30,784 nucleotides of DNA from a virus, in the IMG/VR virus record IMGVR_UViG_3300045988_133025, positions 1 to 30,784 of that record; one strand, 5' to 3'. Under the pieces are notes generated by a model. The model saw nothing but the letters and a program-made list of their open reading frames with translations, did not search any database and had not been told where the DNA came from. Of this stretch, positions 1 through 30,784 are shown piece after piece. Every line of letters begins with the position of its first letter. The first letter of the stretch is position 1. The position numbers and the translations under genes are program-made.

Positions 1-55
1 CCTAAACTATCTAAGGATGCTCAGTTAGGAGCATTATTACCATTAGATACAAGAA
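1..55. repeat. 55-nt terminal direct repeat, identical to 30730..30784; circular-assembly overlap
   Basis: Read directly: cctaaactatctaaggatgctcagttaggagcattattaccattagatacaagaa occurs at both ends. It lies inside a continuous reading frame (the fibre gene), so it is an assembly overlap rather than a physical end. Confidence 0.95.
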
Positions 56-3000
56 TCTGCCCACTAGTACCACCTGAAGTAGGAGCGTAAAGTCTAACCT
101 CAACACTATCTGATGAATAAAAATTATTTATAGTACCGTTTACAACTAATTGTTTAGTTTTAAGATCTTTTAGAGATCCATCTCCCATCGTTACATTAGT
201 ACTAGTACCTCCATCACTGATAAATTTTATAGCCGATACACTTCCTGGAAAAGAAGCATTTTGAGCATTATCTCAAGAATATAGTTGACCTACTTTAGAC
301 ATATTGTTAGGCATTTTTCAACCAAAAGTACCATATCCAGAAATTCTATAGACTGTTAGTTGTCCACTATAGTTTTCATTAACACTTTTAGTTGAAAATG
401 TAAACCTTAGTTTCGAATATTGAGAAGCTTGACTTGGGGAATTGTTATAATATATAGAAGATGTCAAAGCTCTAAAATTAGGTCCCGATCACCCCCGTAA
501 AACAGCATCCTGAGATATTATATCTCAAGATTCAGAACTAGGATTATATGCTTCTATAAAGCAATTATAACCAGAGCCGTTAGTAGACACATATATATAT
601 ATTCAATCAATAGTACAATACCTGTCACTATTATTTATAGTAAGTCTATATTGAGTGGTTGTGCTAACATCTTCTGTATCTATTAATTGTAGACCATACT
701 TATTATCTTGTGAAGTAAATAAACTTATAAGTCTACTACTCCCCTGAGGATCTTCAGTTCACAATTCTCCGTTGTTTTTACTTATTTCTCCATATAAATC
801 AGTACTTTTTATAAACGCTAATTTATCAGAACAATACTCTCCAATATATGAAGTAATTCCATATGGTACAGTATTAGAAGTTGCAGTGTCAACAGTAGGC
901 CCTCCTACACTAGTTATAGGTACTTTTCCCCATTCAGGAGCTGATCTTCCATTTGAAATTAATACTTGTCCTGCTGTTCCAGGAGTTGTAGGTCCATACA
1001 ATAATTTAGAAGACCCATTTGAACATAATACCCTGTGTCCATTATTTTCCGAAGTTTTAAAACCTTTTGCTGTTATGTATGTAAGATTACTGGCCCCATC
1101 CTTAAATTGGTATTCTGTTATAGTGTTGTTAGTATTTTGCTCCCCAGTAGAGTTTTTATGATTAATTACTAGCCTTCCTCCTTTAAATGTCTGTGGTATA
1201 TAGTTAAATTCATCTGACGTTACTGTATTCATATCTAGGAAAGTTAATTTCCTAAATGTTGGTACCCCAGATGTGCCACTTGGAGCTGCTCACACTGTAT
1301 TAGCAGTTTGTGGACTTAAAGATGATCCTAATTCTACATTTCCTGTAAGTATACTGCCAGAATTAGTGAATATAGAACTTGGCAGTACTAACTTAACTGA
1401 GTTAACTAAATCAGGTTTATCTGTCACTCCTGACCAAGGCACACTAGATGCTGCTCCCGCTGTATAAATAGAGTAGCCGTCTTCACTATTTAACTTAGAA
1501 GAATCAATAACAAAATACATATGACCTGTATCTTTCTCTTTAACAGTATCGCCTTCTTGTACTTGTTCAGTGGTTAAAGCTAGTCTTGCTGCTTTATTTG
1601 CAACTATTACTAAACGCTCCAGTGCTCCCTTAGGCAATCTTTCAATATCAATAACTCCCGAGGTAATTTTACCAGCATCTATACCATTAGCAACCCCTAT
1701 ATCTACAATATGTCCTTTCTCATCCTTAGTAATAGAATTTATAATAGTTCCAGATGTAGCACTCCCTCCAACAGGAGTGTAGTGATTTGCAGCACTAGTA
1801 ACCTTGCTATCTGGAGTGTCTATATTACCTGATCCTAGGATACTTTCACCATTAATAGTTTTAATATTAGTTCCAGAAACTAACTCTCCTTGGAATTCTT
1901 CATCATAAGTTTCTACCATAACTGGTTGATTTTCTATAATATATGCAATCAGAGTTATGTTACTAGTTCCTGATAAATATGTTGCATAAGCAACAAAGCT
2001 TCTCTGAGATTCTGAAGAGGAATACTGTCAATAATTAGAGGTTAACGTCGTTTCAGCAGTTTTAATTCTAATTAAAACTGCTCTATCACTTGCCGCAGCT
2101 TCTGCAACTCTATTAAAATCTGTCTCATTTGGTATTTGTTCATTTTCTACCGTAATAGAAGGAACATCACCTACATTAATATTACCATCTCCTAATAAAG
2201 AAAGATTGTTAATTGTTCTAATTGATTCTCCACTAACAAGAATATCCTGTTTAGTAGCAATTGCAGAGGTATTACTAGTTACTTGCTCTTGTAATGTATC
2301 AACTGTACTTTTATCTGCCTTTAATGCCAAATCAGAAGTAGTTGCATAATTACCTGCAGCTTGAATACCAAGAGCAGCAAGAGTTTTATTTCCAGACAAT
2401 TCAACTGAATTAATCTGTGGTTTATTTGTCAACTGATTATAATCTCCAGTTCCTACAGATATTGATATTTCAGAAGTATCGACACTTATGTTACCATTAG
2501 CTACTAAAACTGCAGATACCTCAACGATTGTAGAATCATCTTTAAGATATATTCCTTTTAAATCTAATGATTCGTTGTTTTCAATAGCAACTAAAGGAAG
2601 AACTACTACTTTGCCTTCGTAAGTAATCTCGGCAAATAAATAGAACTCTAAATTAGACTTAATAAAAGAATATACATAAGCTTGATGTTCTGTATCATTT
2701 TCATCTAAATGTAAAAATAAATGATTATTAAATGCAGATATAACATTATCTACAATTCGTATATTGGCTCCTGCTGTTAATTTATCTTGTTTTTTAGAAA
2801 TAGCTGTATTAATTGCACTGTTAATATTGTCTATTTCTTCTTTAGTATACTTATCATTAAGAATACCAAATACTTGAGATGTTAAAATACCAGAAGCATT
2901 AGTACTTGTATTATATCCAGGAAGCTCAACTGCTTGTCCAGTTTGATTACCTAAAGATGGAGTAATAGTCAATTTAGTAGGTATTGCTTGAACCTGTATT

Positions 3001-3494
3001 GCTGGAACTATGTTCGTTGAGGCTTCTAGAGTCTTACCATTTAAAGACGGCTTATTATCTATTGAACTATAATCAGCAGATATAGTATTTCCAGATATAT
3101 TGATTCCATTACCTTCAACTAATTCATCTTGTTTTCCAGCTAAACCTTCAGTAACAGATTCATTAGTAGCAAATCCTTGACTATTTACTCATTCTTCTGT
3201 AGCATATCCATCTAAGCTAGTAATATACCCACTATCATTAGTCAATTGACTAGTTTTAGTAGGTATATTGCTAGTAGATGCTAATCCTAACTCACTTGCA
3301 GTAAGATTCCCATTTAAAGATACTCCGTTTATTTCTGGCTTATTTTGCAGATCTTGATAATTATTAGTTCCTAAATCTTCTCCATTTAAAAGAGCTATAT
3401 TATCATCTTTATCTATTACTAAGGCTTTGGTTACATTATCTCTTGTAATAGTGTCTGCCTCAAGTACATTTAAATAGGGTAATAGATTTTCCAT
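1..3494 (-). CDS. Tail fibre / receptor-binding protein, N-terminal about 1164 codons; continues across the circular junction to 30591 (1210 aa in total)
   Basis: ATG at 3494..3492 overlaps the upstream TAA (TAATG). Track pieces 3189..3494, 2028..2972, 1290..1919 and 759..1232 plus the unlisted stretches share one frame. They are separated only by TGA (lowest coordinates 3189, 2028, 1290, 759, 525, 489, 318, 273, 21). Hand translation of gaps 2973..3188, 1920..2027 and 1..758 met no TAA or TAG. Fibre-type motifs NKP(E/Q/S)(I/L)NG..L.G recur. Confidence 0.8.
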
Positions 3495-3736
3495 TATTCG
3501 TTAAGTTTTAATTTCTCCTCAATCTTTTGTGTTTGTAAATCAACATATTGCTGATGTTTACTTAGATCTATTTCATAATATGCACTAATATCCAAATCTT
3601 TTGGACAGTACATAATAGTAGAAGCACTATATTCTTCAATTGGATCAGATTCTTTATAATTAGTGATAACCTTTCCTTCCTCAGCTTCTAGTACCTTAAA
3701 CTTTAATTGATCATTTGTTGTAAATTTAATTGCCAT
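3494..3736 (-). CDS. Hypothetical protein, 80 aa, translationally coupled to the fibre gene
   Basis: Intact ORF. Its TAA (3494..3496) overlaps the fibre ATG by 1 nt. It follows the terminator at 3765..3803. Confidence 0.55.
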   Translation of the reverse strand: MAIKFTTNDQLKFKVLEAEEGKVITNYKESDPIEEYSASTIMYCPKDLDISAYYEIDLSKHQQYVDLQTQKIEEKLKLNE

Positions 3737-3764
3737 ATTATATAATTTTTATTATTAATGTCTA

Positions 3765-3803
3765 TAAAACAAAATAAGGGGCAAGTAAATTAATACTCGC
3801 CCC
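3765..3803 (-). terminator. Rho-independent terminator after the tail-tube-like gene
   Basis: Hairpin 3778..3803 (GGGGCAAGT / ACTCGCCCC, one mismatch, 8-nt loop). On the minus strand it is followed by TTATTTTGTTTT. Confidence 0.7.
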
Positions 3804-3814
3804 TCTTTCTGTTA

Positions 3815-4339
3815 TTAAGCACCTACAACGCTTTGGATAGCTTCTGCAGATAACTCATAAGGATAAGAATCTGAATCTGTTGAAAGTGTCAGAGTATAAG
3901 CATTCTGATCACCTTTAGCAGTACCAGTAACACCCGTACCAGCGGAAGCGCTTACATAATCATCTTTACCTAAGAACCAATACTTACCATTGCTGTCTTC
4001 AACAACAACTGCAAGCTGACCAATTGATAAAGCTGCAATCTCTACTCGTTTTGCGGTTTCCATCTTTGTAAATACAAGAGCAAGCTCATTACTTACATAA
4101 TTAACACCAGCACTTTCATCTACATTTAAAGTTGAGGTTAGAGAACCAGTAGCCTTTCTAAATTGGTAGTTATACCATTTAGCTGAAGTCTCAAGAGTAA
4201 TAGCTGAAATCATATTGCTATCTTGATCAACCGTTACACTCTTAACATCTGCATACTGAGTAATCCAGACCTGTTTGATGCCACCCAATGAAGGTTGGCA
4301 ATCAAGTGTGATTCCTGCGATAGTTATTAAACAAGCCAT
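3815..4339 (-). CDS. Major tail (tube)-like structural protein, 174 aa
   Basis: Intact ORF ending in TAA. The pattern GGIKQVWI...WYNYQF...NGKYWFLG...TGVTGTAKGDQNAYTLTL resembles siphovirus tail-tube families. It lies downstream of the capsid gene, has richer G/C codon usage, contains no TGA (3 Trp, all TGG) and is followed by a strong terminator. Confidence 0.5.
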   Translation of the reverse strand: MACLITIAGITLDCQPSLGGIKQVWITQYADVKSVTVDQDSNMISAITLETSAKWYNYQFRKATGSLTSTLNVDESAGVNYVSNELALVFTKMETAKRVEIAALSIGQLAVVVEDSNGKYWFLGKDDYVSASAGTGVTGTAKGDQNAYTLTLSTDSDSYPYELSAEAIQSVVGA

Positions 4340-4360: not shown

Positions 4361-5095
4361 TTATTCGTATTTCCACTTTCATTTATAACCAAAACAAGAA
4401 GATCTTTTACCATTACATACATCTGGAATATGAGAACGCTTACTATTAAATGATTTAGCTGCATTCATTATACAATTCCATTCTTTAATAAATTCTCCAT
4501 CTAATGAATACTGCAATACTGGTTTACCATACTTATTAATCATAGCAGCACTGACACTTTTACTAAGTTTTTCTTTGGTAGCATCACTATGATGTTTCCC
4601 TCACATATTTCCCTTCTCTCCTTTTTGAGCTTCAGATATTTTGCGTTTATGTCCCTCAGAAAGTTGTTTACCTATATTATGTATAGGATCAATCCATCTT
4701 TCTGGATGATTCTTCATATATTCTCTCTGCTTTTCTATTCTCTCAAGAGATAACTTAACACCTTTATGTGATTCACTTATCTTTTTTCTAGATTCATCAG
4801 ATACCACTCTATTTAATTGACCTCCAAAATCAATATTATAGCCAAACTCAGAATCATAAGACTTATACTTCTTTATATAGTACTTTTCCCAATTAGTCTC
4901 TAAAGTCTTTAATACCTCTATATTAAAAGATTCTTTACCGTATTTTAATACTGCAGATTTTAGATGAGCATTGCCTCTCTGATGAAGAGACATATGCTCA
5001 CTAAATCTTTGTCTTATATTTCTTATAGTTTGACCTATGTAAACTTTGTTATTTATAGTATTTGTAATTATATAAACGTTCCCAATTCGGTTCAT
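4361..5095 (-). CDS. GIY-YIG homing endonuclease (free-standing), 244 aa
   Basis: N-terminus GNVYIITNTINNKVYIGQT...RF.EH. NUMOD3-like GKHHS..TKEKLS and a C-terminal IENR1-like QYSLDGEFIKEW...CNGKRSSCFGYKWKWKYE appear only when TGA at 4601..4603 and 4379..4381 is read as Trp. Stop is TAA at 4361..4363. Confidence 0.85.
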
Positions 5096-5138: not shown

Positions 5139-6038
5139 TTAAGCTTTTGCACCAAGTACGATCTCATCAGGGAAAGCAACTTGTACACCAGCGTTAAATT
5201 CAATAGCTAATCTAAATTCTCTGAAATCCTGCGAATACCACATTTCGAATTTCTCTTCGTCATTCATCATATCGCAGCCATAGAAGAAGTTCTTGTCAAG
5301 CTGACCAGCAACGATCTTGTCAGTTCCGTTAAGACCATTAACAGCGATTACTTTAACCTGCGAACCAGGAAGCATAATCTCACCGTTAAGATTCTCACCA
5401 CTATAATGGAAGTAGTTCTTAACAACTAACTCCTGGACGAATTTACGGAAGGTATCAGCGCCTACTAAGATAGAAGCACCATCAAGTACTTTCTCAGGAA
5501 TAGCATTATAAACCTTCATAACGTCATCGTAAGCAGAAGTACCAGCAATCGTTACTTCAACAGTACCAACAGCATTTTTTAAGATCTTTAACAGACCATC
5601 GAAATACTTAAGGTTGTTCGTACTAGAAGTAGTATCACCTTGCCAGATAGCGGTTTCAATAGTGGCTTTAACATTCTCAACTACACCACTAATAAAGTCC
5701 TCTTCGAAAGGAAGCGTTTTCTGACCAGCAGCAACGCGAACCTGATACTGAGTCCAATATTTAAGCATAGCTTTGTCGCAATAAGCCATATTAATCTTGA
5801 TATTTCCAGTCGTAAGAACTCGTTGTGAAAGAGTCTGCGTTCCAGCCTCATCCCATCCACAAGTCAGACCATCTCCAAATTCAACATCAGTTGAAAGTAA
5901 GTTAAGAGCAGCTGAAGTTTTAATATCAGTCTGTAAGTTAAATAAACTAGCACTCTTAGCTTTTAATACAGCCTCTTTAATAAGAGGTAATCTACGCTGC
6001 TCAACATAAGCAGTCAAAGAAGTCATTACAGGATTCAT
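5139..6038 (-). CDS. Major capsid protein, 299 aa
   Basis: Intact ORF directly downstream of the protease-scaffold pair (an HEG intervenes). Size and position are typical of an HK97-fold capsid protein. Codons are G/C-richer. There are 4 Trp, all TGG, and no TGA. Confidence 0.7.
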   Translation of the reverse strand: MNPVMTSLTAYVEQRRLPLIKEAVLKAKSASLFNLQTDIKTSAALNLLSTDVEFGDGLTCGWDEAGTQTLSQRVLTTGNIKINMAYCDKAMLKYWTQYQVRVAAGQKTLPFEEDFISGVVENVKATIETAIWQGDTTSSTNNLKYFDGLLKILKNAVGTVEVTIAGTSAYDDVMKVYNAIPEKVLDGASILVGADTFRKFVQELVVKNYFHYSGENLNGEIMLPGSQVKVIAVNGLNGTDKIVAGQLDKNFFYGCDMMNDEEKFEMWYSQDFREFRLAIEFNAGVQVAFPDEIVLGAKA

Positions 6039-6044: not shown

Positions 6045-6554
6045 TTAATTTTGAAATAAATGATTTCTATGTGTTTTTGCCCTACCAGCTAAAACATTAT
6101 CTACACATTTAGGATTATATCCATCTTTCTTTAATTCTTGTCTATTGTAATAGACTTTTACTAAATTTCCATCTAAAGAATAACACTTTATACCTTCGTA
6201 TGATTTACTTCAGGTAACTCCAAGTCTAGCTTTACTGATTGATATTTTAGAGTCTTCTGTATGATGTTTCCCATAAAACGGATTATTAATTCCAGTATGA
6301 TTGTGTCCTTTTCTTTTACCTCCGTTTAATCCTCCAGGTTCTTGATTCATACATAAAGGATCTGTCTTTCAAAGATTGCCAATTCAATATGTATCAACTG
6401 TTCCGTATTTATCGAAATAAGATTTACAAAACCGACCGCTTCCCCTATAAGCTTTGTCATTTTCAGGCTTATATTTAACTGTTCGTTTTCCTATATAATA
6501 TTTTCCAAAATGATTAGGATGAAGGAAGTCGATTCTATAAATATAATGATACAT
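6045..6554 (-). CDS. GIY-YIG homing endonuclease (free-standing), 169 aa
   Basis: There is no ORF here in the standard-code track. With TGA=Trp (6384..6386, 6369..6371, 6210..6212) it reads MYHYIYRIDFL..GKYYIGKR...NPFYGKHHTEDSKISISKA...YSLDGNLVKVY. The ATG overlaps the scaffold TAA (TAATG). Stop is TAA at 6045..6047. Confidence 0.8.
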
Positions 6555-7156
6555 TAACCAATAAAGTTTTTAAGCTTCTTATCTATTTCTGCTATCCCAC
6601 TTATAGGAGCAGTTGTTTTATTTTCAAGTGTTTCCTCTGCTGAAAAAGCAGCACTCATCTTACTCATTTTTTCTACAGTCTTTTCAGTAGCTTCTGATTT
6701 TCCTTCAAGTTCTGCTACCTTCTTAACAAGCTTATCTACAATATCGTAAAGCTCATTAATTTCGCGATGAATAGCGTCGATTGCATCAGTCTCAGTTTCT
6801 TTAACACCGTCTGTTTCAACAGCAGGATCGGCAACTTCCTCAGCTTTTACTTTCTTAGTTCCACAAGCAGCATCAACTTCTGCTTTAGCTGCTTCTTCTG
6901 GATCAACCTCAGCTTTAGGATCAGTAATGGACTCTACTTTACCGTCTTTAACAACAATCGTCTTTCCATCCTCAGTTACATACTCACCATCAGCAGCAGG
7001 TTTGTATTCTCCGTTCTCATCCTGAACATATACATCCATACCAGCGCGTAAGTCTTCATCTGAATCCCAAGTTAAGACTCCATTTGAAGTTTTCAGATCA
7101 CTGAACTTTGCAAGCATTTTAGCCAATTCAAGCTTGATTCTTGTGAATTTGCTCAT
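6554..7156 (-). CDS. Scaffolding protein, 200 aa
   Basis: Acidic, Lys/Glu-rich, coiled-coil-like sequence between the protease and the capsid gene. No TGA. Confidence 0.6.
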   Translation of the reverse strand: MSKFTRIKLELAKMLAKFSDLKTSNGVLTWDSDEDLRAGMDVYVQDENGEYKPAADGEYVTEDGKTIVVKDGKVESITDPKAEVDPEEAAKAEVDAACGTKKVKAEEVADPAVETDGVKETETDAIDAIHREINELYDIVDKLVKKVAELEGKSEATEKTVEKMSKMSAAFSAEETLENKTTAPISGIAEIDKKLKNFIG

Positions 7157-7169
7157 TTAATTAATAATT

Positions 7170-7763
7170 TTAATGTTTAACTCTTTTTATTTTTCTCAAC
7201 ATTTTTTGAATCTCTTTAAGTTCCTCATATTCATCAGATTGTCTTTCTAAAGTAAACAATCCCTCAATAGAGAATCCTTTAAACTTGCCAGCTTTAATTG
7301 CATCCCATATAACAGGATTATTTACTTTATAAGTAGCAAATAATGAACCATCTGGACAATCAGCAAATTCAACTGGATTAATTCCTCTATCTATATCTTT
7401 AATATATAGCTCTTGAAGAATTATTCCAGGAATTACCGAATCTTCCAAATGTTCAATATTTACATCAGTAGTTCTCTTATCATACATCATTTTTTCAGCC
7501 ATTAAACGGAGAGTTTCTTTATCATATTGAATATAATATTCTCCGTTTTTACTATCCCGTCTAAATATAGGTATATCACATACCATTAAACAAGAAGTAA
7601 CTATATGTTTTTCTTCATCCATCGAGAACTTCTGAGATTCCCCAAAAGCAAGCCAATTAACTTGGGTTGCAGGTTTACTGGTCAATGCTACGAACTCTAT
7701 TCCATCACAATCATCAGCAATAATTGCTTGATATAATGGAAGATCATTATACATTTTTTCCAT
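7170..7763 (-). CDS. Prohead protease, XkdF-like, 197 aa
   Basis: DVNIEHLED...GSLFATYKVNNPVIWDAIKAGKFKGFSIEG matches the XkdF-type phage protease pattern. It sits just upstream of the scaffold and capsid genes. No TGA. Confidence 0.6.
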   Translation of the reverse strand: MEKMYNDLPLYQAIIADDCDGIEFVALTSKPATQVNWLAFGESQKFSMDEEKHIVTSCLMVCDIPIFRRDSKNGEYYIQYDKETLRLMAEKMMYDKRTTDVNIEHLEDSVIPGIILQELYIKDIDRGINPVEFADCPDGSLFATYKVNNPVIWDAIKAGKFKGFSIEGLFTLERQSDEYEELKEIQKMLRKIKRVKH

Positions 7764-7842
7764 TTTTTATTAATATATAAGCTATTTTAAAAATGTAATA
7801 TTGTTACAATCTTTTATTTTTGTATATTTATATACTATCAAA

Positions 7843-7865
7843 TGTCAAGTTTTTTACTCAAATTT
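7843..7865. promoter_or_regulatory. Conserved intergenic motif, copy A2 (TGTCAAGTTTTTTACTCAAATTT)
   Basis: One of four near-identical copies (7938, 17012, 30189). It forms the start of a ~50-nt unit (7842..7892) that ends in the inverted TTGACAT and is homologous to 17012..17052. Confidence 0.6.
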
Positions 7866-7894
7866 GTATCTAAGATAAATAAATTTTGACATAG

Positions 7895-7938
7895 CACTAC
7901 TATATAAGCACTGATAATCAGCAACTTACATAGTAGTG
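7895..7938. other. Stem-loop (9-bp stem CACTACTAT / ATAGTAGTG, 26-nt loop) between motif copies A1 and A2
   Basis: Complementary arms at 7895..7903 and 7930..7938 read directly. The loop holds a small inner CTGA/TCAG hairpin. Confidence 0.5.
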
Positions 7939-7960
7939 TGTCAGAAATTTTACTCACTTT
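7938..7960. promoter_or_regulatory. Conserved intergenic motif, copy A1 (GTGTCAGAAATTTTACTCACTTT)
   Basis: A more diverged copy. It overlaps the tape-measure stop codon (7959..7961). On the minus strand it directly precedes the 7895..7938 hairpin. Confidence 0.5.
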
Positions 7961-14270: not shown

Positions 14271-14272
14271 AA

Positions 14273-17009: not shown

Positions 17010-17011
17010 TT

Positions 17012-20153: not shown

Positions 20154-20175
20154 AGTATATATAACTATTATAGTA

Positions 20176-20840: not shown

Positions 20841-21150
20841 ATGTTCACATATATCCTCCTGCTGTTTTTCGCTGCCCTTTAAGAACCTTTACAATATTTC
20901 TAGATTGTATATTTAGTTCTCTCTCAGCATCTATTGTTGAATCCCATCTTTTAATAACTATTCCATTTAGTAATTGCAGTATTGGTTTCTTATGACTATA
21001 TCCAGCTCGCAGATTATGAGTTCCATAATTATTATTATAATTATAAGTACACCATTCTAAATTACTTACATTATTATTTGATTTATTTTCATCCTTATGA
21101 TTTATACAAGGATAGTTATGCCATCAGTTCCAATTTGGTAGTTTTCAAAA
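20833..21150 (-). pseudogene. 5'-truncated HNH_3-type homing endonuclease without a start codon (about 105 codons)
   Basis: It reads ...HNYPCINHKDENKSNNNVSNLEWCT...KKPILQLLNGIVIKRWDSTIDAERELNIQSRNIVKVLKGQRKTAGGYMWTYE*. This aligns to the C-terminal two-thirds of the intact HNH at 26827..27318. The NUMOD4 N-terminus is missing, and no ATG, GTG or TTG precedes the HNH motif. The frame opens right after TAA at 21151..21153. Confidence 0.5.
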
Positions 21151-21162
21151 TTAAGTATTCTT

Positions 21163-21600
21163 TTATAGGCTATCATTTGCTATATAATTACTAAATTCTG
21201 TATTTACATCTATCTTAATGGCTTTCTTTAAAGACAACTCTGTTTTTAATGAATAGCCATAAGTTCCTCCAAAATCTGTTGTAGAACAACCATATTTCAT
21301 AGAATCCTTTATAAAGGCTTGTTTTATATCTTTAAATATATATACTCCATCATCAAATATTATTACTAATATAGAATTATTTCTGGATAGTAGATCAAAT
21401 TTTTCTCTATTAATAATAGTTGTTGGATATTTATTAGAATTAAATCTCCTTCTTTTAACTTCTATTATATAATCAATTCCATTCCAATTAAATGTTCCAT
21501 CATATCTGGAATAATTATCTTTACATCATTCTATGTGTATATTAAATTTCTCTTTAAATAGATTCTTTGTAAAGACTAAGCTTCTTATATCTGTTTTCAT
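21163..21600 (-). CDS. PD-(D/E)xK-like nuclease-fold protein, 145 aa
   Basis: No track ORF. With one TGA=Trp it reads MKTDIRSL...HIEWCKDNYSRYDGTFNWNGIDYIIEVKRRRF... (a D...E.K motif). The ATG overlaps the upstream TAA (TAATG). Stop is TAA at 21163..21165. Confidence 0.4.
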
Positions 21601-21839
21601 TATTTTATATTATTAATTTTAAGGGTTAAATCACAATATTCTTCATATAAATTAGATACTTCTTCACTTGCAGGATTAAACCACATTACTGAATCTAATT
21701 TATGCTTTAACTCTGCTCTTTCTAATCTTAATTCAAATGTTTTAGTTTGGTAGTCTCCATAAGCATTATATACTCTAATACCAGCTATTCCCATTAAAAT
21801 AATCGTTGCAATAATTGCATATTTAAATATAGTTTTCAT
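21600..21839 (-). CDS. Small membrane-anchored protein, 79 aa
   Basis: Intact ORF with an N-terminal hydrophobic helix (YAIIATIILMGIAGI). Confidence 0.55.
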   Translation of the reverse strand: MKTIFKYAIIATIILMGIAGIRVYNAYGDYQTKTFELRLERAELKHKLDSVMWFNPASEEVSNLYEEYCDLTLKINNIK

Positions 21840-21936
21840 AATTTATAAATTTTAATTGTTAATATTATATCTTTTATTGTAATACAAAGATAATGAAAAG
21901 TTTTTAATTCTCAAAATATTTAAGCAATTATTTTTA

Positions 21937-22683
21937 TTAAAATTCAAAAATATCTTTATTGTCGTATTCAATATCTTGTTTTCTGTCTAATCCAAATAAA
22001 CCAGCAAGTATGTCATTATAGATATTATTAGCTTTTGGACTTAAATAAAGCTTATTCTTTACAAAATAAACGGTTTGCTTATATAATTTATTATCAGAGG
22101 GAGTAGAAAGCACATTCTTAATAGTTCTAATATTCTGCTCATTTAAATGCACTACTTCATTCTTAATAAACTCTTCATATCTTATCTGATAACCATCTTC
22201 TACTTTATCTAAGTAAAATCCATACTCTTTTAGCTTATTAAGCTTATTATTTAATAGATTATATGTAATATCTAATTCTTTAGCTATATCCTTCTTATTT
22301 AACTTAATTTTTAAAGTATCATCAAATGCCAAACTTCTAATTCTTAAGGCAAATCCCAATAAATTTAGATCCTTATCAATATTATTAATTACAAAATCTA
22401 ATTTAACCATAAAAAATGTATTTAGTATTGATTTATAGGTATTAGTCTTTATAACATTACCATTATCTTTAATTATAACCTTAGTAGAGCAGTCTAATAA
22501 CTCTGCTTTATAAAGATGACTATTCATCTTTTTAATATAATCTACAGAGCATTTTAAATACTTTGCAAAGTAATCTCTTGTATATACTTTATTTTGAAGC
22601 TGTGTATAAGATTGTAAAGCCATATAATATGCTTCTTTGTCATTCAAATCCTTTACTCGTTTATCAATTTTTAAATAAATCAT
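21937..22683 (-). CDS. Putative replication initiator or winged-helix DNA-binding protein, 248 aa
   Basis: It is the first gene of the leftward unit and abuts the iteron-like repeats and the AT-rich tract. It has two wHTH-like segments (FAKYLKCSVDYIKKMNSHLYKAELL and KKDIAKELDITYNLLNNKLNKLKEYGF). It contains no Trp codons. Confidence 0.35.
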   Translation of the reverse strand: MIYLKIDKRVKDLNDKEAYYMALQSYTQLQNKVYTRDYFAKYLKCSVDYIKKMNSHLYKAELLDCSTKVIIKDNGNVIKTNTYKSILNTFFMVKLDFVINNIDKDLNLLGFALRIRSLAFDDTLKIKLNKKDIAKELDITYNLLNNKLNKLKEYGFYLDKVEDGYQIRYEEFIKNEVVHLNEQNIRTIKNVLSTPSDNKLYKQTVYFVKNKLYLSPKANNIYNDILAGLFGLDRKQDIEYDNKDIFEF

Positions 22684-22730
22684 AGTGCTAAATTTTTTAC
22701 TGGAACGAAAGCTCGAAGAGCTGAGTCCTA

Positions 22731-22764
22731 TAGTATTACTTTTATTATAGTATTACTTTTATTA
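22731..22764. repeat. Perfect tandem 17-mer x2 (TAGTATTACTTTTATTA)
   Basis: Read directly: 22731..22747 equals 22748..22764. Confidence 0.9.
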
Positions 22765-22766
22765 AT

Positions 22767-22802
22767 GGGTACTGAATCGACAGGTCGGTCGGGTACTGAA
22801 TC
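22767..22802. repeat. 12-mer GGGTACTGAATC x2 at 24-nt spacing, flanking GACAGGTCGGTC
   Basis: Read directly: 22767..22778 equals 22791..22802. Confidence 0.9.
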
Positions 22803-22820
22803 AATATATGTCTAAAAATA

Positions 22821-22845
22821 GGGTTTGGGTAGCTAATCCAAACCC
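22821..22845. other. Stable hairpin (GGGTTTGG / CCAAACCC, 9-nt loop) in the control region
   Basis: Read directly. On the minus strand it is followed by TATTTTTAG and on the plus strand by CTTTTAG. It could terminate a short transcript in either direction. Confidence 0.5.
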
Positions 22846-23020
22846 CTTTTAGCACTAATAAAAGTAGTAATTATTTCTAATTACAAGGCAAAGATAACAT
22901 TATTTTTTTAAAAATCAAAATTTTTTACAATAAAAAAATAACTTTTTATTAAAAATATTTTATTAAAAATAATATTACAATTCTTGAATATATTATATAT
23001 TAATAAAAAAGAATAAAATT

Positions 23021-24636: not shown

Positions 24637-25140
24637 TTACTTTATAGCCTTCTCTAATTGCTTTAGAATAAGAACATCGTCTTTATATGCACCTACTTTT
24701 TTAGCTCTAGGATTATTGCCAAAAGAATTATTTAAATAACTCAAATCTTTACCTTTATGACTATTACTCATCTTTTTTCTAGTCTCTTCTGATGGGTGTC
24801 TTCCAATACATTTGGCTCTAATCTTATCTTTTCTTTCCTGAGTGAATACAATACCTAAGGTGCCGTCACCTCCATCTGTAGCATTATATCCATATTTTGG
24901 ATCTCTAGTATTATATTTATGAATAAGAATTTTTTCTAAAGTCTTGGCACAAGGTTCTGGTAAATTATCTTTAATTATAATATGTTCAAAATTATCCCAG
25001 CCGTATTTTGTTATAGCGTTTCAAAACGGCTGTTTTCTATAACCAAGACCATTTGCTCATCTTATTTCTGGATTCTTACAAGTAATGCCAATATATTTCT
25101 TACCATTAATCTTGTTTAAATGAATATATATACTATACAT
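24637..25140 (-). CDS. GIY-YIG homing endonuclease (free-standing), 167 aa
   Basis: No track ORF. It reads MYSIYIHLNKINGKKYIGIT...IRWANGLGY...FWNAITKYGWDNFEHIII with two TGAs; the KYGW Trp is TGG (24997..24999). The ATG overlaps the endolysin 3' end. Stop is TAA at 24637..24639. Confidence 0.85.
24861..25009. repeat. Dispersed repeat, about 85% identical to 28332..28480 (GIY-YIG core of paralogous HEGs)
   Basis: Aligned by eye over 149 nt. This includes a 33-nt perfect run, ATTATCTTTAATTATAATATGTTCAAAATTATC, at 24964..24996 and 28435..28467. Confidence 0.85.
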
Positions 25141-25582
25141 ATAAATTACCTTTTTTTCTTCGTTGTAGTCCTTTAATACTATATAAAGCAATGTGCACTC
25201 ACTGAGATGTACGACTTTTTTCTATAAAACATTCATCGAAATTTCTATCCTTCAAAAAGTTTAATAGGAATTGATAAAACTCTTCTCTACTTCCAGAGAC
25301 ATTTTGAAGGTCTGCAGCATAACCCGTCATATGTGCAGATGTAACTGAACCATTTACAGCTTTATTAAGTTCATTACATCTATAACCTGAATTCACACTT
25401 ATTGCTGGATTTCCCAACCGATTAACATCACAATACTCTGCCCAATCACTTCTTAATGGATCTAAAAGTTTCTCGACTAACTCTATAAGGTGTTCAGTAA
25501 TCTCTTTATTTGGAGTATTATCTATCTGCTTAATAGAAGCTGTATCAGATCTTGTTAATTCACTAATAGTAAAATATTTCAT
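25133..25582 (-). CDS. Endolysin, M15-family zinc peptidase (L-Ala-D-Glu / D-Ala-D-Ala peptidase type), 149 aa
   Basis: F.ISEL...LLDPLR...ISVNSGYRCNELNKAVNGSVTSAHMTGYAADL matches the SxHxxGxAxD metal-binding motif. The ORF continues through a TGA (25199..25201) into WVHIALY..., restoring the family's conserved C-terminal W-V-H. Stop is TAG at 25133..25135. Confidence 0.75.
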
Positions 25583-25743
25583 TATTTAATAATATCTTTA
25601 AGCATAACATAACGGTAAAATAAATGACATCCTGCACCAAGTGCTATGAGTACTAATGTAATCCAAAATGGAATTACTTTTACCATTAAACATACTAAGA
25701 TTATAATTACTATTGCTATTAAATATTTCATCCAATATTTCAT
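25582..25743 (-). CDS. Holin-like protein, 53 aa, two transmembrane segments
   Basis: It reads MKYWMKYLIAIVIIILVCLMVKVIPFWITLVLIALGAGCHLFYRYVMLKDIIK. Its TAA overlaps the endolysin ATG (TAATG). Confidence 0.5.
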   Translation of the reverse strand: MKYWMKYLIAIVIIILVCLMVKVIPFWITLVLIALGAGCHLFYRYVMLKDIIK

Positions 25744-27983: not shown

Positions 27984-28626
27984 AATAATATTTATAATTT
28001 TTACAGGGTTTATTTTTTCTACAAGATCTAGATATACTAGAAGAATCTACATTATTCTTCTCTCCAGCTTCTTTAGCTGATTTATACTCACAAATAAAAT
28101 TACCATCTAAATCATACTTATATACTTTTTTGCACTGGCGTTCTGAAATTAGTTGTTTTTCTTTATCTGAGAGTTTCATACCTTTATTTCAAGGAGTTTT
28201 GCCTAATCTTGCCTCCCTCATTTTACGCTTGCTTTCATCTGAATGCTGTTTACCATAAAATGAATTATTTTCTCCTGATCTTATAATTCTAAGACTATCT
28301 TTATAATCTTGTGAAAAAGAATATCCACAAGTACCGTCTCCTCCATCAGTTAAATTATACCCATATTTTGGATTTCTAGTATTATACTTATAAATCAGAA
28401 TCTTTTCTAAAGTCTTAGCACAAGCTTCTGGAAGATTATCTTTAATTATAATATGTTCAAAATTATCTCATCCATATTTTTTAATTGCTCTGCTAAAATA
28501 AAGATTATTCTTGTAACCTTGACCTTTAGTTCCCCATCTATTATTTAAAGTAAGTGATGTTATTCCAAAATATAATTTATTATCAGCTGTATTCTTATGG
28601 CAGTACACTGTATAATTATTCAACAT
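27973..28626 (-). CDS. GIY-YIG homing endonuclease (free-standing), 217 aa
   Basis: Only the last 68 aa are in the track. With TGAs at 28468..28470 and about 28188 it reads YTVYCHKNTADNKLYFGIT...NRWGTKGQGY...AIKKYGWDNFEHIII...NSFYGKQHSDESKRKM...YKYDLDGNFICEY. Its 5' end overlaps the portal stop and its 3' end overlaps the next gene's start. Stop is TAG. Confidence 0.85.
28332..28480. repeat. Dispersed repeat partner of 24861..25009
   Basis: See 24861..25009. At the KYG-W codon this copy has TCA on the plus strand (TGA in the gene) where the partner has CCA (TGG). Confidence 0.85.
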
Positions 28627-29683
28627 TTTCTGCATTATCTGACATTCCTTTTGGAGTTAAACTAAATGGCTCAATCGTAATACTATTCTTAATACCGAAG
28701 ATTTTATCAAATGAATCACAAATTTCTGATTGTATTGGGCGTACAAAAGTACGATTATATAGCTTAAATGCTTCATTAAACTCATTTTCATTAAATCCTG
28801 AGCTATAGTTTAAACCGAACAACGAAGGATTAGCTCTGAAGGCACAGAATATTTGATCTCTGGTTCTCTCAGATAGTGATTGATATTTCTCATCAAAATC
28901 ATCAGAATCTAACCTTTCAATTGTGGTCTTATTTGTCTCATCTGCATTATATGAAATCAATATTCTGCCAGCGTTTTGATAACCAGAGAACTTCTCATTA
29001 ATATTTCTTTCAATCTCTTCTCTAATTTCATCTGTAGGTTCCCCATTATTAAAGTTAATAATAAGATTACCCATAAATCCATTATTGATGTTATTTAAAT
29101 GGAATTCATTAATATTTTTCTCAGTTTCGCAAGATAAAATAGCAGCTCCATAAACAGGAATAGGATATACTCCTCTTGTTATATAACCTTTATTATAAAA
29201 TATACTAGCTGGATTTTCATCTCCAACTCCAAATTTTGGATATTTAATAGCTTTTACAGACCAAGCAGTCCAATCAGTTGCATAGTATAATATATCATTC
29301 TTTTCACTTGATCTTATATTCATAAAATCAATATGATAGATTTCTGCAACTCTTCCAATCATATCTCTAATTACTTGGATAGCATAACCTCCAAATATCA
29401 TCTTATCAATAGTGATTTTTCTCATTATATCAACTATTGTTTCACCTTTCTTGTTTACAACTACTTCAAATCCTGGAGCATTACATTTAACATCATTACC
29501 AACAATAAAGTCAGCAGAACCATTAATAATAGATTGGAGAGTGGCAACATTTAAATATAAATCCCATAAATATAATGGATATTTGTTATCTTCCCCTCAC
29601 ATTATCATATCAGAACCTCTTTTCCTTGTTTCCGTTGGAAGAACGATGTTAGATTGAATGAAAGGATCTATGGCTGACATCAT
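28616..29683 (-). CDS. Portal protein, 355 aa
   Basis: The track ORF 28616..29425 extends upstream through a TGA (29597..29599) to ATGATG at 29683. It reads MWGEDNKYPLYLWDLYLNVATLQSIINGSADFIVGN...DKMIFGGYAIQV, a PBSX/HK97-type portal N-terminal pattern. Confidence 0.65.
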
Positions 29684-29693
29684 TATTTTACTT

Positions 29694-30086
29694 TTATTTT
29701 CGCTCATAACTTACGTATGTATTAGATTTATCATATTGATATTTATTATTCTCATAATCTCCAATTCTTATTAATCCTGTTCCCAATATAGGTATTGGTT
29801 TACCAGCTACTAATATCTGAGTGCCATTAGTAAGAGTATTATTATATGTAACCAAGATAACTGGATTTCCATATAACTCTGATCTAAATGGATTGTTTAC
29901 ATCAACTATAACTTGAAATTTATTTGGATTAGTAAATAAAATATATTGATATTCACCATCTCGCATTCCTTCTTGAAGTGTAATATCAAACTTATAGTAG
30001 ATATTCTCAGAATAATTCTGATTTTCAAGATTAAATGTATAAACTTCTTTTGTAGTTGTATTTTGCATTAATAAAGTATAATTCAT
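29694..30086 (-). CDS. Hypothetical protein, 130 aa
   Basis: Intact ORF, the first gene after motif copy C and its hairpin. Stop is TAA. Confidence 0.55.
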   Translation of the reverse strand: MNYTLLMQNTTTKEVYTFNLENQNYSENIYYKFDITLQEGMRDGEYQYILFTNPNKFQVIVDVNNPFRSELYGNPVILVTYNNTLTNGTQILVAGKPIPILGTGLIRIGDYENNKYQYDKSNTYVSYERK

Positions 30087-30162
30087 ATTTTACAGCAATT
30101 TACATTAGTTTTACATATCTTTTTCTTAAAATATAAACCAATTTACTAATGTATTAAAATAA

Positions 30163-30188
30163 TTAAAGGAGACCGAAGCCTCCTTTAA
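30163..30188 (-). terminator. Rho-independent terminator-like hairpin
   Basis: 9-bp stem TTAAAGGAG / CTCCTTTAA with an 8-nt loop. On the minus strand it is followed by TTATTTTAAT and sits immediately downstream of motif copy C. Confidence 0.6.
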
Positions 30189-30211
30189 TGTCAAGTTTTT
30201 TACTCACTTTA
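30189..30211. promoter_or_regulatory. Conserved intergenic motif, copy C (TGTCAAGTTTTTTACTCACTTTA)
   Basis: Matches copy A2 at 20 of 23 positions by eye (first 18 nt identical). It lies between the 30240 gene and the 30086 gene. Confidence 0.6.
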
Positions 30212-30239
30212 AGTTATAATAAAAATAAAAATACTGATG

Positions 30240-30467
30240 TTATTTATCAGAATCTGCTAACTTACTCTGTAACTCTTGTATTGTTGCTTCTAGCTCGTTG
30301 ATCTTGTTATTATACTCATTAGCAGTTATATAGTCTCCTTTTGGTTGAAATAAAGCATCTACTTCTAATTTTGAATAACTACCAATGGGTAATTGACCTT
30401 TTTCTATTCCAGTCTTTTTGGCAATATAGAAAGTCTGCGTATTTTTAGAATTCTTTAGTAATATCAT
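30240..30467 (-). CDS. Hypothetical protein, 75 aa, with a C-terminal coiled-coil
   Basis: Intact ORF with a TAA stop. Confidence 0.5.
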   Translation of the reverse strand: MILLKNSKNTQTFYIAKKTGIEKGQLPIGSYSKLEVDALFQPKGDYITANEYNNKINELEATIQELQSKLADSDK

Positions 30468-30475
30468 AATTAGGA

Positions 30476-30589
30476 CTATTTATTAGAAGTTGTAGTCGTT
30501 GCAGGCCAGATTTGGGTACTGCCAACATAAATGGCAATACCCTTTCTGTCACCTACATAAAATCCTTTTAAATCGGTCTTTATGTTCAT
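30476..30589 (-). CDS. Hypothetical small protein, 37 aa
   Basis: The ATG lies 1 nt after the fibre TAA. It reads MNIKTDLKGFYVGDRKGIAIYVGSTQIWPATTTTSNK and ends at TAG, with a TAA two codons later. Confidence 0.3.
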   Translation of the reverse strand: MNIKTDLKGFYVGDRKGIAIYVGSTQIWPATTTTSNK

Positions 30590-30590
30590 A

Positions 30591-30784
30591 TTATTCAACT
30601 ATTAAATATTGAGTATTAGAATCTTTTGTTGATAAACCATCATATTCTGATTGAGTTAGAACAGTAATCGTATTTATTTGAGGTCGGGTTCCAGTTCCAG
30701 CTTCAATATAGTTTCCAGCAGGCTGAATACCTAAACTATCTAAGGATGCTCAGTTAGGAGCATTATTACCATTAGATACAAGAA
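30591..30784 (-). CDS. C-terminal end of the tail fibre gene that starts at 3494 (wraps the circular junction)
   Basis: Same frame as 1..3494 once the 55-nt overlap is collapsed: (3494 + 139) nt = 1211 codons. It reads ...APNWASLDSLGIQPAGNYIEAGTGTRPQINTITVLTQSEYDGLSTKDSNTQYLIVE* with TAA at 30591..30593. Confidence 0.8.
30730..30784. repeat. 55-nt terminal direct repeat, identical to 1..55
   Basis: Read directly. Confidence 0.95.

What the first reader, a model, noticed from the sequence alone, without database searches (positions are those of the whole stretch)
1..30784. Nothing in this complete genome appears able to decode TGA, yet host cues argue against wall-less Mollicutes
After recoding the genome is almost entirely coding. 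The only non-coding gaps longer than about 90 nt are 7764..7958, 16933..17196, 21840..21936, 22684..23020 and 30087..30239. By eye none folds into a cloverleaf: I saw no GTTCRA-type T-loop and no 7-nt loop presenting a TCA anticodon. No ORF resembles RF1, RF2 or TrpRS.

TGA also occurs in genes next to the Rep-like and sigma genes (21163..21600, 19875..20153) and in the divergent plus-strand module. The code is therefore not confined to late genes. That would normally imply a host that natively uses table 4, classically Mollicutes.

Several features argue against that host:
- The phage carries a holin plus an M15 peptidoglycan peptidase (25133..25743).
- Two tail proteins carry BACON-like repeats, a domain mostly seen in Bacteroidota and their phages.
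- All gene leaders I checked are A/T-only, with no GGAGG. Weak Shine-Dalgarno use is typical of Bacteroidota but also of some Mollicutes.
- It encodes an ECF-type sigma factor.

Either a walled lineage uses table 4, or a standard-code host is made to read TGA by a mechanism not encoded in any recognisable form here.
Basis: partly seen in the sequence, partly recalled or inferred. Interest (0 to 1): 0.85.

Follow-up and report, generated by a model that had tools for sequence, protein, structure and literature searches.

The report
tRNA-less TGA=Trp Bacteroidota gut phage
This is a complete 30.7-kb gut phage that reads the stop codon TGA as tryptophan yet carries no tRNA or other recognisable decoder; it almost certainly infects a walled, standard-code Bacteroidota host, so it is a clean example of a documented but mechanistically unexplained class of recoded phages.

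Summary
The window is a circular 30,729-bp phage genome in which TGA is a sense codon: 56 in-frame TGAs in 21 of 38 genes. TGA means Trp, not Gly.

No tRNA is found by ARAGORN (default, intron, circular and relaxed modes) or by Rfam. None is found in 106 relatives' loci either. No RF, TrpRS, deaminase or tRNA-modifying domain exists in the proteome.

A Mollicutes host is excluded in practice:
- The M15 endolysin has intact zinc ligands and is about 50% identical to Bacteroides fragilis phage endolysins.
- Portal, g17197 fold and capsid relatives all point to Bacteroidota phages.
- Gene leaders lack Shine-Dalgarno sequences and are A-rich.

Borges et al. found suppressor tRNAs in only 35% of them.

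New here:
- The absence of tRNAs is clade-wide.
- TGA is under-used (44% of Trp codons, against 70-95% A-ending in other codon pairs).
- TGA is avoided in capsid, scaffold, tail-tube-like and holin genes, but common in homing endonucleases and the tail fibre.
- A TGA-divested sister genome shows codon capture.

Most likely mechanism (inferred, not shown): host tRNA-Trp(CCA) wobble-reads UGA while RF2 competition is weakened. This is a new member of a known kind; the mechanism stays open.

The parts
1..30784 (.). Complete circular phage genome of 30,729 bp. Positions 30730-30784 repeat 1-55 (assembly overlap).
   Evidence: Identical 55-nt ends. ORF continues across the junction. About 45 related contigs of about 30 kb.
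1..3494 (-). Tail fibre gene, 5' part. The gene continues at 30591-30729. 1210 aa, 10 in-frame TGA versus 2 TGG.
   Evidence: Phage_tail_C domain at the C-terminus. TGA fraction in the clade is 0.82.
30591..30729 (-). Tail fibre gene, 3' end, across the circular junction.
3815..4339 (-). Abundant virion protein, tail-tube-like (phrog_19091). TGA avoided.
   Evidence: Clade TGA 1 versus TGG 56.
5139..6038 (-). Major capsid protein, completely TGA-free across the clade.
   Evidence: PHROG head-protein families. nr name 'Major capsid protein'. 0 TGA versus 136 TGG.
6554..7763 (-). Scaffold-like protein (6554-7156) and XkdF-type prohead protease (7170-7763). TGA avoided.
   Evidence: Peptidase_S78_2. 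TGA 0/21 and 5/50.
10833..16450 (-). Two large tail or baseplate proteins (10833-14270 with 7 TGA; 14273-16450 with 4 TGA). BACON-like segments are sub-threshold.
   Evidence: BACON_2 20.5 bits, BACON 17.7 and 14.3 bits against a 25-bit cut-off. Full-length alignment to the stop-free L030 homologs shows read-through products are the real proteins.
17858..19105 (-). Large terminase, with 1 in-frame TGA.
   Evidence: Terminase_6N and Terminase_6C.
17197..17856 (-). Conserved TGA-free protein of unknown function. Its fold is shared with Nonlabens and Flavobacterium phage proteins. Not a translation factor.
   Evidence: pLDDT 90. No PDB match. BFVD matches.
19875..21600 (-). Regulatory or early-operon genes that carry TGA: membrane protein 19875-20207 (4 TGA), HTH/sigma-r4-like 20300-20548, 20532-20840 (1 TGA), truncated HNH remnant 20841-21162, nuclease-like 21163-21600 (1 TGA).
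21600..22683 (-). First genes of the leftward operon: 79-aa membrane protein (21600-21839, TGG only) and Rep-like HTH protein (21937-22683, no Trp codon at all). Both are translatable under the standard code.
22684..23020 (.). Divergent control region, AT-rich and strongly structured.
   Evidence: Strand switch and GC-skew inversion. z -4.7 and -6.8.
25133..25743 (-). Lysis cassette: M15_3 endolysin (25133-25582, in-frame TGA at 25199-25201 = Trp128 of the WVH motif) and a 53-aa two-TM holin candidate (25582-25743, TGA-free).
   Evidence: Peptidase_M15_3 at 52.5 bits. 46-51% identity to Bacteroides phage endolysins. H84/D91/H130 invariant.
28616..29707 (-). Portal protein.
   Evidence: Phage_portal. 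Its only cultured relatives are Nonlabens and Bacteroides phages.
4361..5095 (-). One of five GIY-YIG homing endonuclease genes. The others are 6045-6554, 10286-10831, 24637-25140 and 27973-28635. These are the most TGA-rich genes.
3737..3814 (-). Intrinsic terminator. Similar terminators lie in gaps 16933-17196 and 30087-30239, and a long perfect hairpin lies in gap 7764-7958. None is tRNA-like.

Best explanation
A virulent tailed phage with no integrase. It belongs to a large clade of about 30-kb human-gut phages whose host is a walled, standard-code Bacteroidota bacterium, probably Bacteroidales.

Its lineage lost TGA as a stop codon under AT pressure. It then recaptured TGA as a tryptophan codon (codon capture).

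The phage encodes no decoder of its own, so TGA is read by host machinery. The most likely route is the host's ordinary tRNA-Trp(CCA) reading UGA by C34-A wobble, made efficient because release factor 2 competes poorly. RF2 could be weak for either of two reasons:
- an unidentified early phage protein that can be translated under the standard code weakens RF2, or
- RF2 is naturally scarce in the host. Once UGA is read through, the UGA-dependent prfB frameshift would further lower RF2 synthesis.

Because this decoding is slower or leakier than TGG, TGA is kept out of the most abundantly made proteins. It is tolerated in low-copy proteins and in selfish homing endonucleases.

Shown: the recoding, its Trp meaning, the absence of any decoder, the Bacteroidota signals, the codon-usage gradient and the evolutionary path. 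Inferred: the identity of the decoder and any role of RF2.
For: Recoding and Trp identity.

No tRNA in the window or in 106 loci of relatives. ARAGORN positive control: 8 tRNAs in L161. No translation-related domain in any protein. g17197 fold is unrelated to translation.

Host:
- Endolysin is 46-51% identical to endolysins of B. fragilis phages B124-14 and B40-8 and of crAss-like phages, with Prevotella phages also among the hits; catalytic residues are intact.
- Portal relatives are Nonlabens and Bacteroides phages only.
- g17197 fold occurs in Nonlabens and Flavobacterium phages.
- Distant capsid relatives sit in Chitinophagaceae and Bacteroidota MAG bins.
- No SD; A-rich at -14..-11 and -3.

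Cost of TGA:
- 44% of Trp codons, against 70-95% A-ending in 12 other codon pairs.
- Capsid 0/136, tail-tube-like 1/57, scaffold 0/21, holin 0/23, portal 18/150.
- Tail fibre 41/50, homing endonucleases 65-83% where sampled in 7 or more loci.

Codon capture:
- TGA stops fall with GC in relatives.
- Sister genome L030/L169 has no internal TGA among its roughly 60 Trp codons. Its two terminal TGAs are each backed by TAA or TAG within two codons.

Plausibility of tRNA-free decoding:
- In E. coli with attenuated RF2, native tRNA-Trp inserts Trp at about 80% of UGA (PMC11903333).
- F. johnsoniae has low prfB frameshift efficiency and low RF2 demand (PMC12421855).

Genuine stops are 49% +4T. In-frame TGA is 16% +4T, against 22-23% in controls.

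Genes nearest the control region and the replication gene are mostly TGA-free (18 of 19 genomes for the helicase-like gene).
Against: - No direct host link: no CRISPR spacer, no prophage junction. All host evidence is by similarity.
- No candidate RF2 antagonist was identified.
- Genes with 7-10 TGAs need high per-codon read-through. Wobble decoding has only been shown to reach that level in engineered E. coli.
- TGA sits in putative regulators (g20300, g20532) and in a 161-181-aa ORF next to the control region in about half of the relatives examined. Decoding therefore seems to be needed early.
- The +4 context signal is weak (p 0.02-0.08).
- The Bacteroidota -7 promoter motif is not enriched.
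Confidence: 0.4

Rival explanations
1. A dedicated opal-suppressor tRNA-Trp(UCA) is supplied in trans. The source could be the host chromosome, a resident prophage or island, or a co-infecting TGA-recoded phage such as a crAss-like phage that carries one.
For: The clade-wide lack of tRNAs fits reliance on an outside source. Larger code-4 phages of similar hosts do carry such tRNAs. A low-abundance suppressor competing with RF2 would also produce the observed avoidance of TGA in abundant proteins.
Against: Depending on co-infection seems too fragile for so abundant and diverse a clade (595 or more capsid matches in IMG/VR, 3420 proteins). I know of no Bacteroidales report of a chromosomal opal suppressor. 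Nothing here tests this directly.
Confidence: 0.2
2. The host itself natively reads TGA as Trp: an undescribed walled lineage that has lost RF2 and uses table 4.
For: This is the simplest way to explain the missing decoder and TGA in regulatory genes. The sister phage backs up its two terminal TGAs with a second stop, as phages do when TGA termination is unreliable (PMC10746230).
Against: TGA is under-used for a 29% GC genome and absent from the most expressed genes. In AT-rich native table-4 organisms TGA is the preferred Trp codon (background knowledge). The sister phage at the same GC has 0 internal TGA among its roughly 60 Trp codons, so its host punishes internal TGA. All similarity points to Bacteroidota, which has no known table-4 member.
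Confidence: 0.15
3. The phage does encode its own decoder, but in an unrecognisable form. Examples would be a highly aberrant or split tRNA, or a protein that edits or modifies C34 of host tRNA-Trp.
For: Borges et al. suggest undetected non-canonical tRNAs as the reason for low detection rates. About a third of the proteins have no annotation.
Against: Both strands of the whole genome were scanned with intron, circular, mitochondrial-type and lowered-threshold models. No tca-anticodon candidate lies outside coding sequence. Rfam finds nothing at E<=1. The conserved structured gaps are ordinary terminators. No deaminase or methyltransferase domain was found.
Confidence: 0.07
4. The host is a wall-less Mollicute (classical table 4), or a code-25 CPR bacterium.
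For: Low GC and TGA as a sense codon.
Against: The endolysin is intact and of the Bacteroides-phage type, and a holin candidate is present. No similarity to any Mycoplasma or Spiroplasma phage was found. TGA aligns with Trp, not Gly.
Confidence: 0.02

Closest known systems
Code-4 (TGA=Trp) recoded gut phages of standard-code hosts (Borges et al. 2021/2022; small clades Garnet, Amethyst and Topaz are 22-34 kb)
   Same: Gut habitat, small genome, genes almost all on one strand. TGA aligns with Trp. Close relatives use the standard code and have shed TGA stops. A Bacteroidetes-type host is indicated. No suppressor tRNA is detectable, as in 65% of their code-4 genomes.
   Different: In their model, recoded codons concentrate in structural and lysis genes as a late-gene switch. 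Here the capsid, scaffold, tail-tube-like and holin genes avoid TGA, while regulators and homing endonucleases carry it. No integrase is present. Membership in one of their named clades was not tested because their sequences are not at hand.
Jade phages with a code-change operon (tRNA-Sup(UCA) + TrpRS + RF1)
   Same: Same reassignment, TGA to Trp, in a standard-code host.
   Different: None of the three components is present here.
Mycoplasma and Spiroplasma native table 4
   Same: UGA = Trp, AT-rich genome.
   Different: Those cells have lost prfB and carry tRNA-Trp(UCA) (PMC12421855), and they lack peptidoglycan. This phage has a working peptidoglycan peptidase and Bacteroidota affinities, and it under-uses TGA.
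RF2-attenuated E. coli 'Ochre' precursor strains (Grome et al. 2025)
   Same: UGA is read as Trp by native tRNA-Trp(CCA) with no suppressor tRNA once RF2 recognition of UGA is weakened. This is the proposed working analogy.
   Different: That is an engineered system in a different phylum. No evidence yet that a phage does this.
Code-neutral phages of CPR bacteria (Liu et al. 2023, PMC10746230)
   Same: The sister genome L030/L169 has no internal TGA and backs up its terminal TGAs with a second stop, as those phages do.
   Different: That applies to the sister genome, not to the window. The reassigned meaning in CPR hosts is Gly.

Membership tests
Stop-codon-recoded (code 4) phage | Conserved genes are interrupted by in-frame TGA, and the ORFs are restored by read-through. 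| tested here: met
   Longest ORF 567 to 1166 aa. 56 TGAs in 21 of 38 genes. Full-length alignment to stop-free homologs.
Stop-codon-recoded (code 4) phage | TGA aligns with Trp in homologs. | tested here: met
Stop-codon-recoded (code 4) phage | Phage-encoded suppressor tRNA, RF1 or TrpRS. Typical of the family but not universal. | tested here: not met
Stop-codon-recoded (code 4) phage | Recoded codon is enriched in late structural and lysis genes, with early genes in the standard code. | tested here: inconclusive
   Major structural genes and the holin avoid TGA, while regulators carry it. Genes nearest the control region are mostly TGA-free.
Stop-codon-recoded (code 4) phage | Host uses the standard code. 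| not testable with these tools
   Indirect support only: Bacteroidota affinities and a sister phage that avoids internal TGA.
Phage of a native table-4 Mollicute | No need for peptidoglycan lysis; relatives among Mycoplasma or Spiroplasma phages. | tested here: not met
   Intact M15_3 endolysin. No such relatives in 50,697 phage records.
Phage of a native table-4 Mollicute | TGA is the preferred Trp codon, as expected at low GC. | tested here: not met
   TGA 44% in the window and 37% in the clade, against 70-95% A-ending elsewhere.
Code-25 phage (Gracilibacteria or Absconditabacteria host) | TGA aligns with Gly. | tested here: not met
   Gly aligned 11 times against W/TGA 418 times in close relatives. 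No Gly in standard-code relatives.
Bacteroidota phage | Lysis and virion proteins are closest to those of cultured Bacteroidota phages. | tested here: met
   Endolysin, portal, g17197 fold.
Bacteroidota phage | SD-less, A-rich translation initiation regions. | tested here: met
   GGAG in 2 of 37 leaders. A in 28 of 37 at -13 and -14. This feature is not exclusive to the phylum.
Bacteroidota phage | BACON domains above the Pfam threshold. | tested here: not met
   Best 20.5 bits against a 25-bit cut-off.
Bacteroidota phage | Bacteroidota -7 promoter motif TAnnTTTG is enriched. | tested here: not met
   38 found against 46 expected. Three copies lie on the coding strand in gaps.
Bacteroidota phage | CRISPR spacer or prophage junction in a Bacteroidota genome. 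| not testable with these tools
   The one genome scan found only distant capsid relatives in MAG bins.
Peptidase M15 endolysin | Pfam hit above threshold and the His-Asp-His zinc ligands. | tested here: met
   52.5 bits against 23.2. H84, D91 and H130 are invariant.
ECF sigma factor | Sigma-70 regions 2 and 4 above Pfam thresholds. | tested here: not met
   Only Sigma70_r4_2, at 20.7 bits against 25.7. No region 2 hit. HTH_50 passes.

The most novel reading that the evidence does not exclude
The phage converts a standard-code Bacteroidota cell to 'TGA = Trp' with no nucleic-acid decoder at all. A small early protein that is itself TGA-free would disable or deplete RF2, or alter host tRNA-Trp. 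Candidates are the conserved 79-aa membrane protein at 21600-21839 and other unannotated early ORFs. The host's own tRNA-Trp(CCA) would then read UGA. That would be a protein-only switch of the genetic code, and it would also garble host genes that end in TGA.
Probability: 0.2. Interest if true: 0.9.

Novelty: new member of a known kind. Interest (0 to 1): 0.5.

Why it matters
How phages without a suppressor tRNA get a reassigned stop codon decoded in a standard-code host is an open question. Published surveys have put the gap down to missed tRNAs.

This clade makes the question testable:
- The genomes are small (30.7 kb, 38 genes).
- There are many complete relatives.
- The clade is demonstrably tRNA-free.
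- The candidate host group is cultivable.
- A TGA-free sister genome is available as a control.

The expression-linked avoidance of TGA also suggests the reassigned codon is costly. That does not fit the simple 'late-gene switch' model.

If the decoder proves to be host tRNA-Trp plus RF2 antagonism, it would be a new form of host takeover. It would also be a natural counterpart to engineered stop-codon compression.

Tried and rejected
- Relaxed tRNA searches (ARAGORN -ps60 to -ps90, -i, -mt, -mtx, circular) gave only noise, and tca hits lay only inside coding sequence.
- Rfam at E<=1 gave one chance snoRNA hit.
- Structured conserved gaps turned out to be intrinsic terminators.
- The 148-kb IMG/VR contig (IMGVR_UViG_3300045988_175865) carries this phage only in its last ~30 kb, ending exactly at window position 1. 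Three attempts to read the rest failed.
- The 412-kb contig holding an endolysin homolog is a jumbo phage, not a host.
- The 180-kb scaffold with a distant syntenic relative showed only phage genes within reach.
- The GTDB scan gave only two distant capsid relatives on short MAG contigs.
- No cultured relative of the capsid was found, and only remote ones of TerL.
- g17197 was examined as a possible code-change factor. It gave a confident model with no PDB match, and the fold is widespread in standard-code phages, so it was rejected.
- The 572-aa TGA-free early gene of relatives has SF2-helicase motifs by eye but no Pfam or PHROG hit, and it is absent from the window.
- The +4 nucleotide context test was only suggestive.
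- TGA position within genes shows no bias.
- The Bacteroidota promoter motif is not enriched.

Full report
WHAT THE WINDOW IS

The first and last 55 nt are identical. A 1210-codon tail-fibre frame runs from 3494 down through position 1 and on to 30591. The window is therefore a circularly assembled, complete genome of 30,729 bp. GC content is 29%. Cumulative GC skew falls almost monotonically, and nearly all genes lie on the minus strand.

Reading through TGA raises the longest ORF from 567 to 1166 aa, whereas reading through TAG changes nothing. Under table 4 I count 38 genes covering 94% of the genome. There are 56 in-frame TGAs in 21 genes, spread evenly along the genes.

The JGI annotation of this very contig (30,784 bp) truncates the endolysin at its TGA, giving 127 instead of 149 aa.

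WHAT TGA MEANS

Four independent lines give Trp:
- Paralogous GIY-YIG and HNH genes within the genome align TGA with W, for example KYG-TGA-DNFEH against KYGWDNFEH.
- In the recoded relatives, the window's TGAs align with TGA 277 times and TGG 141 times, and its TGGs align with TGA 160 times. The next most common partners are Y and F. Gly appears 11 times.
- In standard-code relatives the partners are Y, W and F, never G.
- The endolysin's TGA sits on the invariant Trp of the WVH zinc-ligand motif of Bacteroides phages B124-14 and B40-8.

Counting TGA as Trp also raises Trp content from 0.75% to a normal 1.33%. Code 25 (TGA = Gly) is excluded.

NOTHING IN THE GENOME DECODES TGA

- ARAGORN finds no tRNA or tmRNA at default settings, on the circularised sequence, or with introns allowed.
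- With thresholds lowered and mitochondrial-type models it returns tens to hundreds of noise hits. The few with a tca anticodon all lie inside coding sequence, and none is in a gap.
- Rfam with permissive filters reports no tRNA at E<=1.
- The non-coding gaps that are conserved and strongly structured fold into GC-rich hairpins followed by U-runs. These are intrinsic terminators.
- All 38 proteins were scanned against Pfam and the unknowns against PHROGs. No release factor, TrpRS, deaminase or tRNA-modifying domain appears.
- The absence is a property of the clade. 106 loci from relatives covering every genome region have no tRNA; about 90 of these loci, from roughly 45 distinct contigs, belong to the recoded clade itself.
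- The same tool finds eight tRNAs in an unrelated jumbo-phage locus, which serves as a positive control.

HOST

A Mollicutes host is not tenable.
- The endolysin is a solid Peptidase_M15_3 (52.5 bits).
- Its His84, Asp91 and His130 are invariant.
- It is 46-51% identical over about 90% of its length to the endolysins of cultured Bacteroides fragilis phages. crAss-like phages match at about 46%, and Prevotella phages are also among the hits.

Other proteins point the same way.
- The portal's only relatives among 50,697 phage records are two Nonlabens (Flavobacteriia) phages and a Bacteroides phage.
- A confident model of the conserved protein g17197 (pLDDT 90) matches only uncharacterised phage proteins. 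The ones with named hosts are from Nonlabens and Flavobacterium phages.
- The only capsid relatives in GTDB species genomes lie on short contigs binned with a Chitinophagaceae and a Bacteroidota MAG, at 33-36% identity.

Gene leaders have no Shine-Dalgarno sequence: GGAG occurs in 2 of 37. They carry an A-rich block at -14 to -11 and A at -3. From background knowledge, this is the Bacteroidota pattern.

BACON and BACON_2 are the top models for both large tail proteins but score below the cut-off (20.5, 17.7 and 14.3 bits against 25). The 'ECF sigma' rests on a sub-threshold region-4 hit.

There is no direct host link.

EVOLUTIONARY PATH

Standard-code relatives use TGA stops in proportion to GC: 15-18 at 56% GC, 10 at 43%, and 1-2 at 31-32%.

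The nearest non-recoded relative has 67% capsid identity, the same synteny and 28% GC. I read all 30.1 kb of it (L030 plus L169). It has no internal TGA among its roughly 60 Trp codons. Its only two in-frame TGAs are at gene ends, each followed within two codons by TAA or TAG.

All members with 87% or more capsid identity are recoded. This is the codon-capture sequence that Borges et al. describe for Agate phages. The sister's strict avoidance of internal TGA at this base composition implies that its host terminates at TGA.

HOW TGA IS USED

TGA makes up 44% of Trp codons in the window. Every other A/G-ending codon pair is 70-95% A-ending.

Across the clade the TGA share differs sharply by gene:
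- Low: capsid 0/136, tail-tube-like g3815 1/57, scaffold 0/21, holin 0/23, protease 5/50, portal 18/150.
- Intermediate: the tape-measure-like protein about half, TerL and endolysin about 43%.
- High: tail fibre 41/50, homing endonucleases 65-83% where sampled in 7 or more loci.

The share falls as the expected protein copy number rises. That is the signature of a codon that is decoded less well than TGG. It differs from the published picture, in which recoded codons mark structural and lysis genes.

In the early region:
- The window's Rep-like gene has no Trp codon.
- The helicase-like gene that replaces it in most relatives is TGA-free in 18 of 19 genomes.
- The first gene of the leftward operon (21600-21839) is TGG-only in all 18 deduplicated sequences.
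- The next genes, including the HTH/sigma-like pair, carry TGA.

The exception is a 161-181-aa ORF with 3 TGAs beside the control region in about half of the relatives examined.

Genuine stop codons are followed by T in 49% of cases. In-frame TGAs are followed by T in 16%, against 22-23% for TGG and other NNA codons. This fits avoidance of strong termination contexts but is weak (p 0.02-0.08).

MECHANISM

Shown: the recoding, its Trp meaning, the missing decoder, the host signals, the cost gradient and the evolutionary path.

Inferred: the decoder. The reading I favour (confidence 0.4) is that host tRNA-Trp(CCA) reads UGA by wobble while RF2 competes poorly.
- The decoding step is established in E. 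coli. When RF2's recognition of UGA is attenuated, native tRNA-Trp inserts Trp at about 80% of UGA codons and read-through is high (PMC11903333).
- It explains why the reassigned meaning is Trp, why no tRNA is needed, and why TGA remains a costly codon.
- In one Bacteroidota species, prfB depends on an inefficient UGA frameshift and RF2 demand is low (PMC12421855). In-frame reading of that UGA would lower RF2 further. That last step is my inference.
- Genes with 7-10 TGAs need efficient decoding, so some active weakening of RF2 is likely. No candidate protein was identified.

Rivals:
- A suppressor tRNA supplied by the host or another mobile element (0.2).
- A native table-4 walled host (0.15). 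The under-use of TGA, the sister phage and the Bacteroidota affinities argue against it.
- An unrecognisable phage-encoded decoder (0.07).
- A Mollicutes or code-25 host (0.02).

COMPARISON WITH WHAT IS KNOWN

Code-4 phages predicted to infect standard-code Bacteroidetes and Firmicutes are documented.
- Suppressor tRNAs were found in only 35% of them. The shortfall was attributed to undetected non-canonical tRNAs.
- A Dutch cohort study found matching tRNAs in 13% of TAG-recoded genomes.
- Small recoded clades of 22-34 kb with unidirectional skew exist.

This genome is therefore a new member of a known kind, not a new kind. What it adds:
- a clean, clade-wide demonstration that the tRNA really is absent;
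- a codon-usage gradient that points to costly decoding;
- a TGA-divested sister genome;
- a concrete, testable hypothesis.

Interest is moderate at 0.5. The phenomenon is published, but the mechanism is an open question, and this small clade is a good system for answering it.

Noticed in passing
window 7764-7958, 16933-17196, 30087-30239 (minus strand): A shared motif GAGTAAAAA[AG][CT]TTGACA recurs in three intergenic gaps, each ahead of a structural operon and next to a terminator hairpin. It is probably a phage promoter or regulator site. It contains a canonical TTGACA rather than the Bacteroidota-type motif.
   Followed up: no
window 4361-5095, 6045-6554, 10286-10831, 24637-25140, 27973-28635 (GIY-YIG); 23021-23806, 24273-24596, 26827-27318, remnant 20841-21162 (HNH): Very high load of homing endonucleases: nine genes or remnants in 30.7 kb, differing in position between relatives. 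They are the most TGA-rich genes. They may spread only among recoded phages, or be held at low expression by TGA.
   Followed up: partly
window 20300-20840; L089 7364-8382; L108 7423-8438: The sigma-like function is split into two overlapping ORFs of 102 aa and 82 aa. In some relatives an HNH endonuclease gene sits between the two halves.
   Followed up: no
window 21937-23806 versus L088 4682-6400 and 18 other relatives: The replication module is swapped. The window and two other contigs have a Rep-like HTH protein plus an HNH gene. Most relatives instead have a 572-575-aa protein with SF2-helicase motifs (GCGGTS, DEYH, TAT, QxxGRxR by eye) and no Pfam or PHROG hit.
   Followed up: partly
L002, L106, L121 (IMGVR_UViG_3300045988_175865, 148,631 bp): A 148-kb IMG/VR contig carries a relative of this phage only in its last ~30 kb, ending exactly at the position equivalent to window base 1. 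The other ~118 kb could be host DNA, a chimera or a concatenated bin. It could not be read.
   Followed up: partly
L083 (ENA ERZ858000 NODE_825, 39,517 bp): A contig with an identical capsid protein is 39.5 kb. It has a longer tail fibre (1722 aa) plus a further 743-aa fibre-repeat protein, which points to tail-fibre module exchange within the species.
   Followed up: no
L169 (reverse complement) 4100-4678 and 6866-7192: In the TGA-free sister phage the only two in-frame TGAs are terminal and backed by TAA or TAG within two codons. This is a code-neutral design like that reported for phages of code-25 CPR bacteria.
   Followed up: yes
L161-L163 (ENA XIEF21-1 scaffolds, up to 412 kb): A jumbo phage of about 412 kb carries an endolysin 51% identical to the window's. 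It also encodes IF3, thymidylate synthase, a dNMP kinase, a sigma factor and at least eight tRNAs.
   Followed up: no
window 7880-7945 (minus strand): A near-perfect hairpin of about 20 bp lies between the tape-measure-like gene and the protease gene. It is much longer than a usual terminator stem.
   Followed up: no
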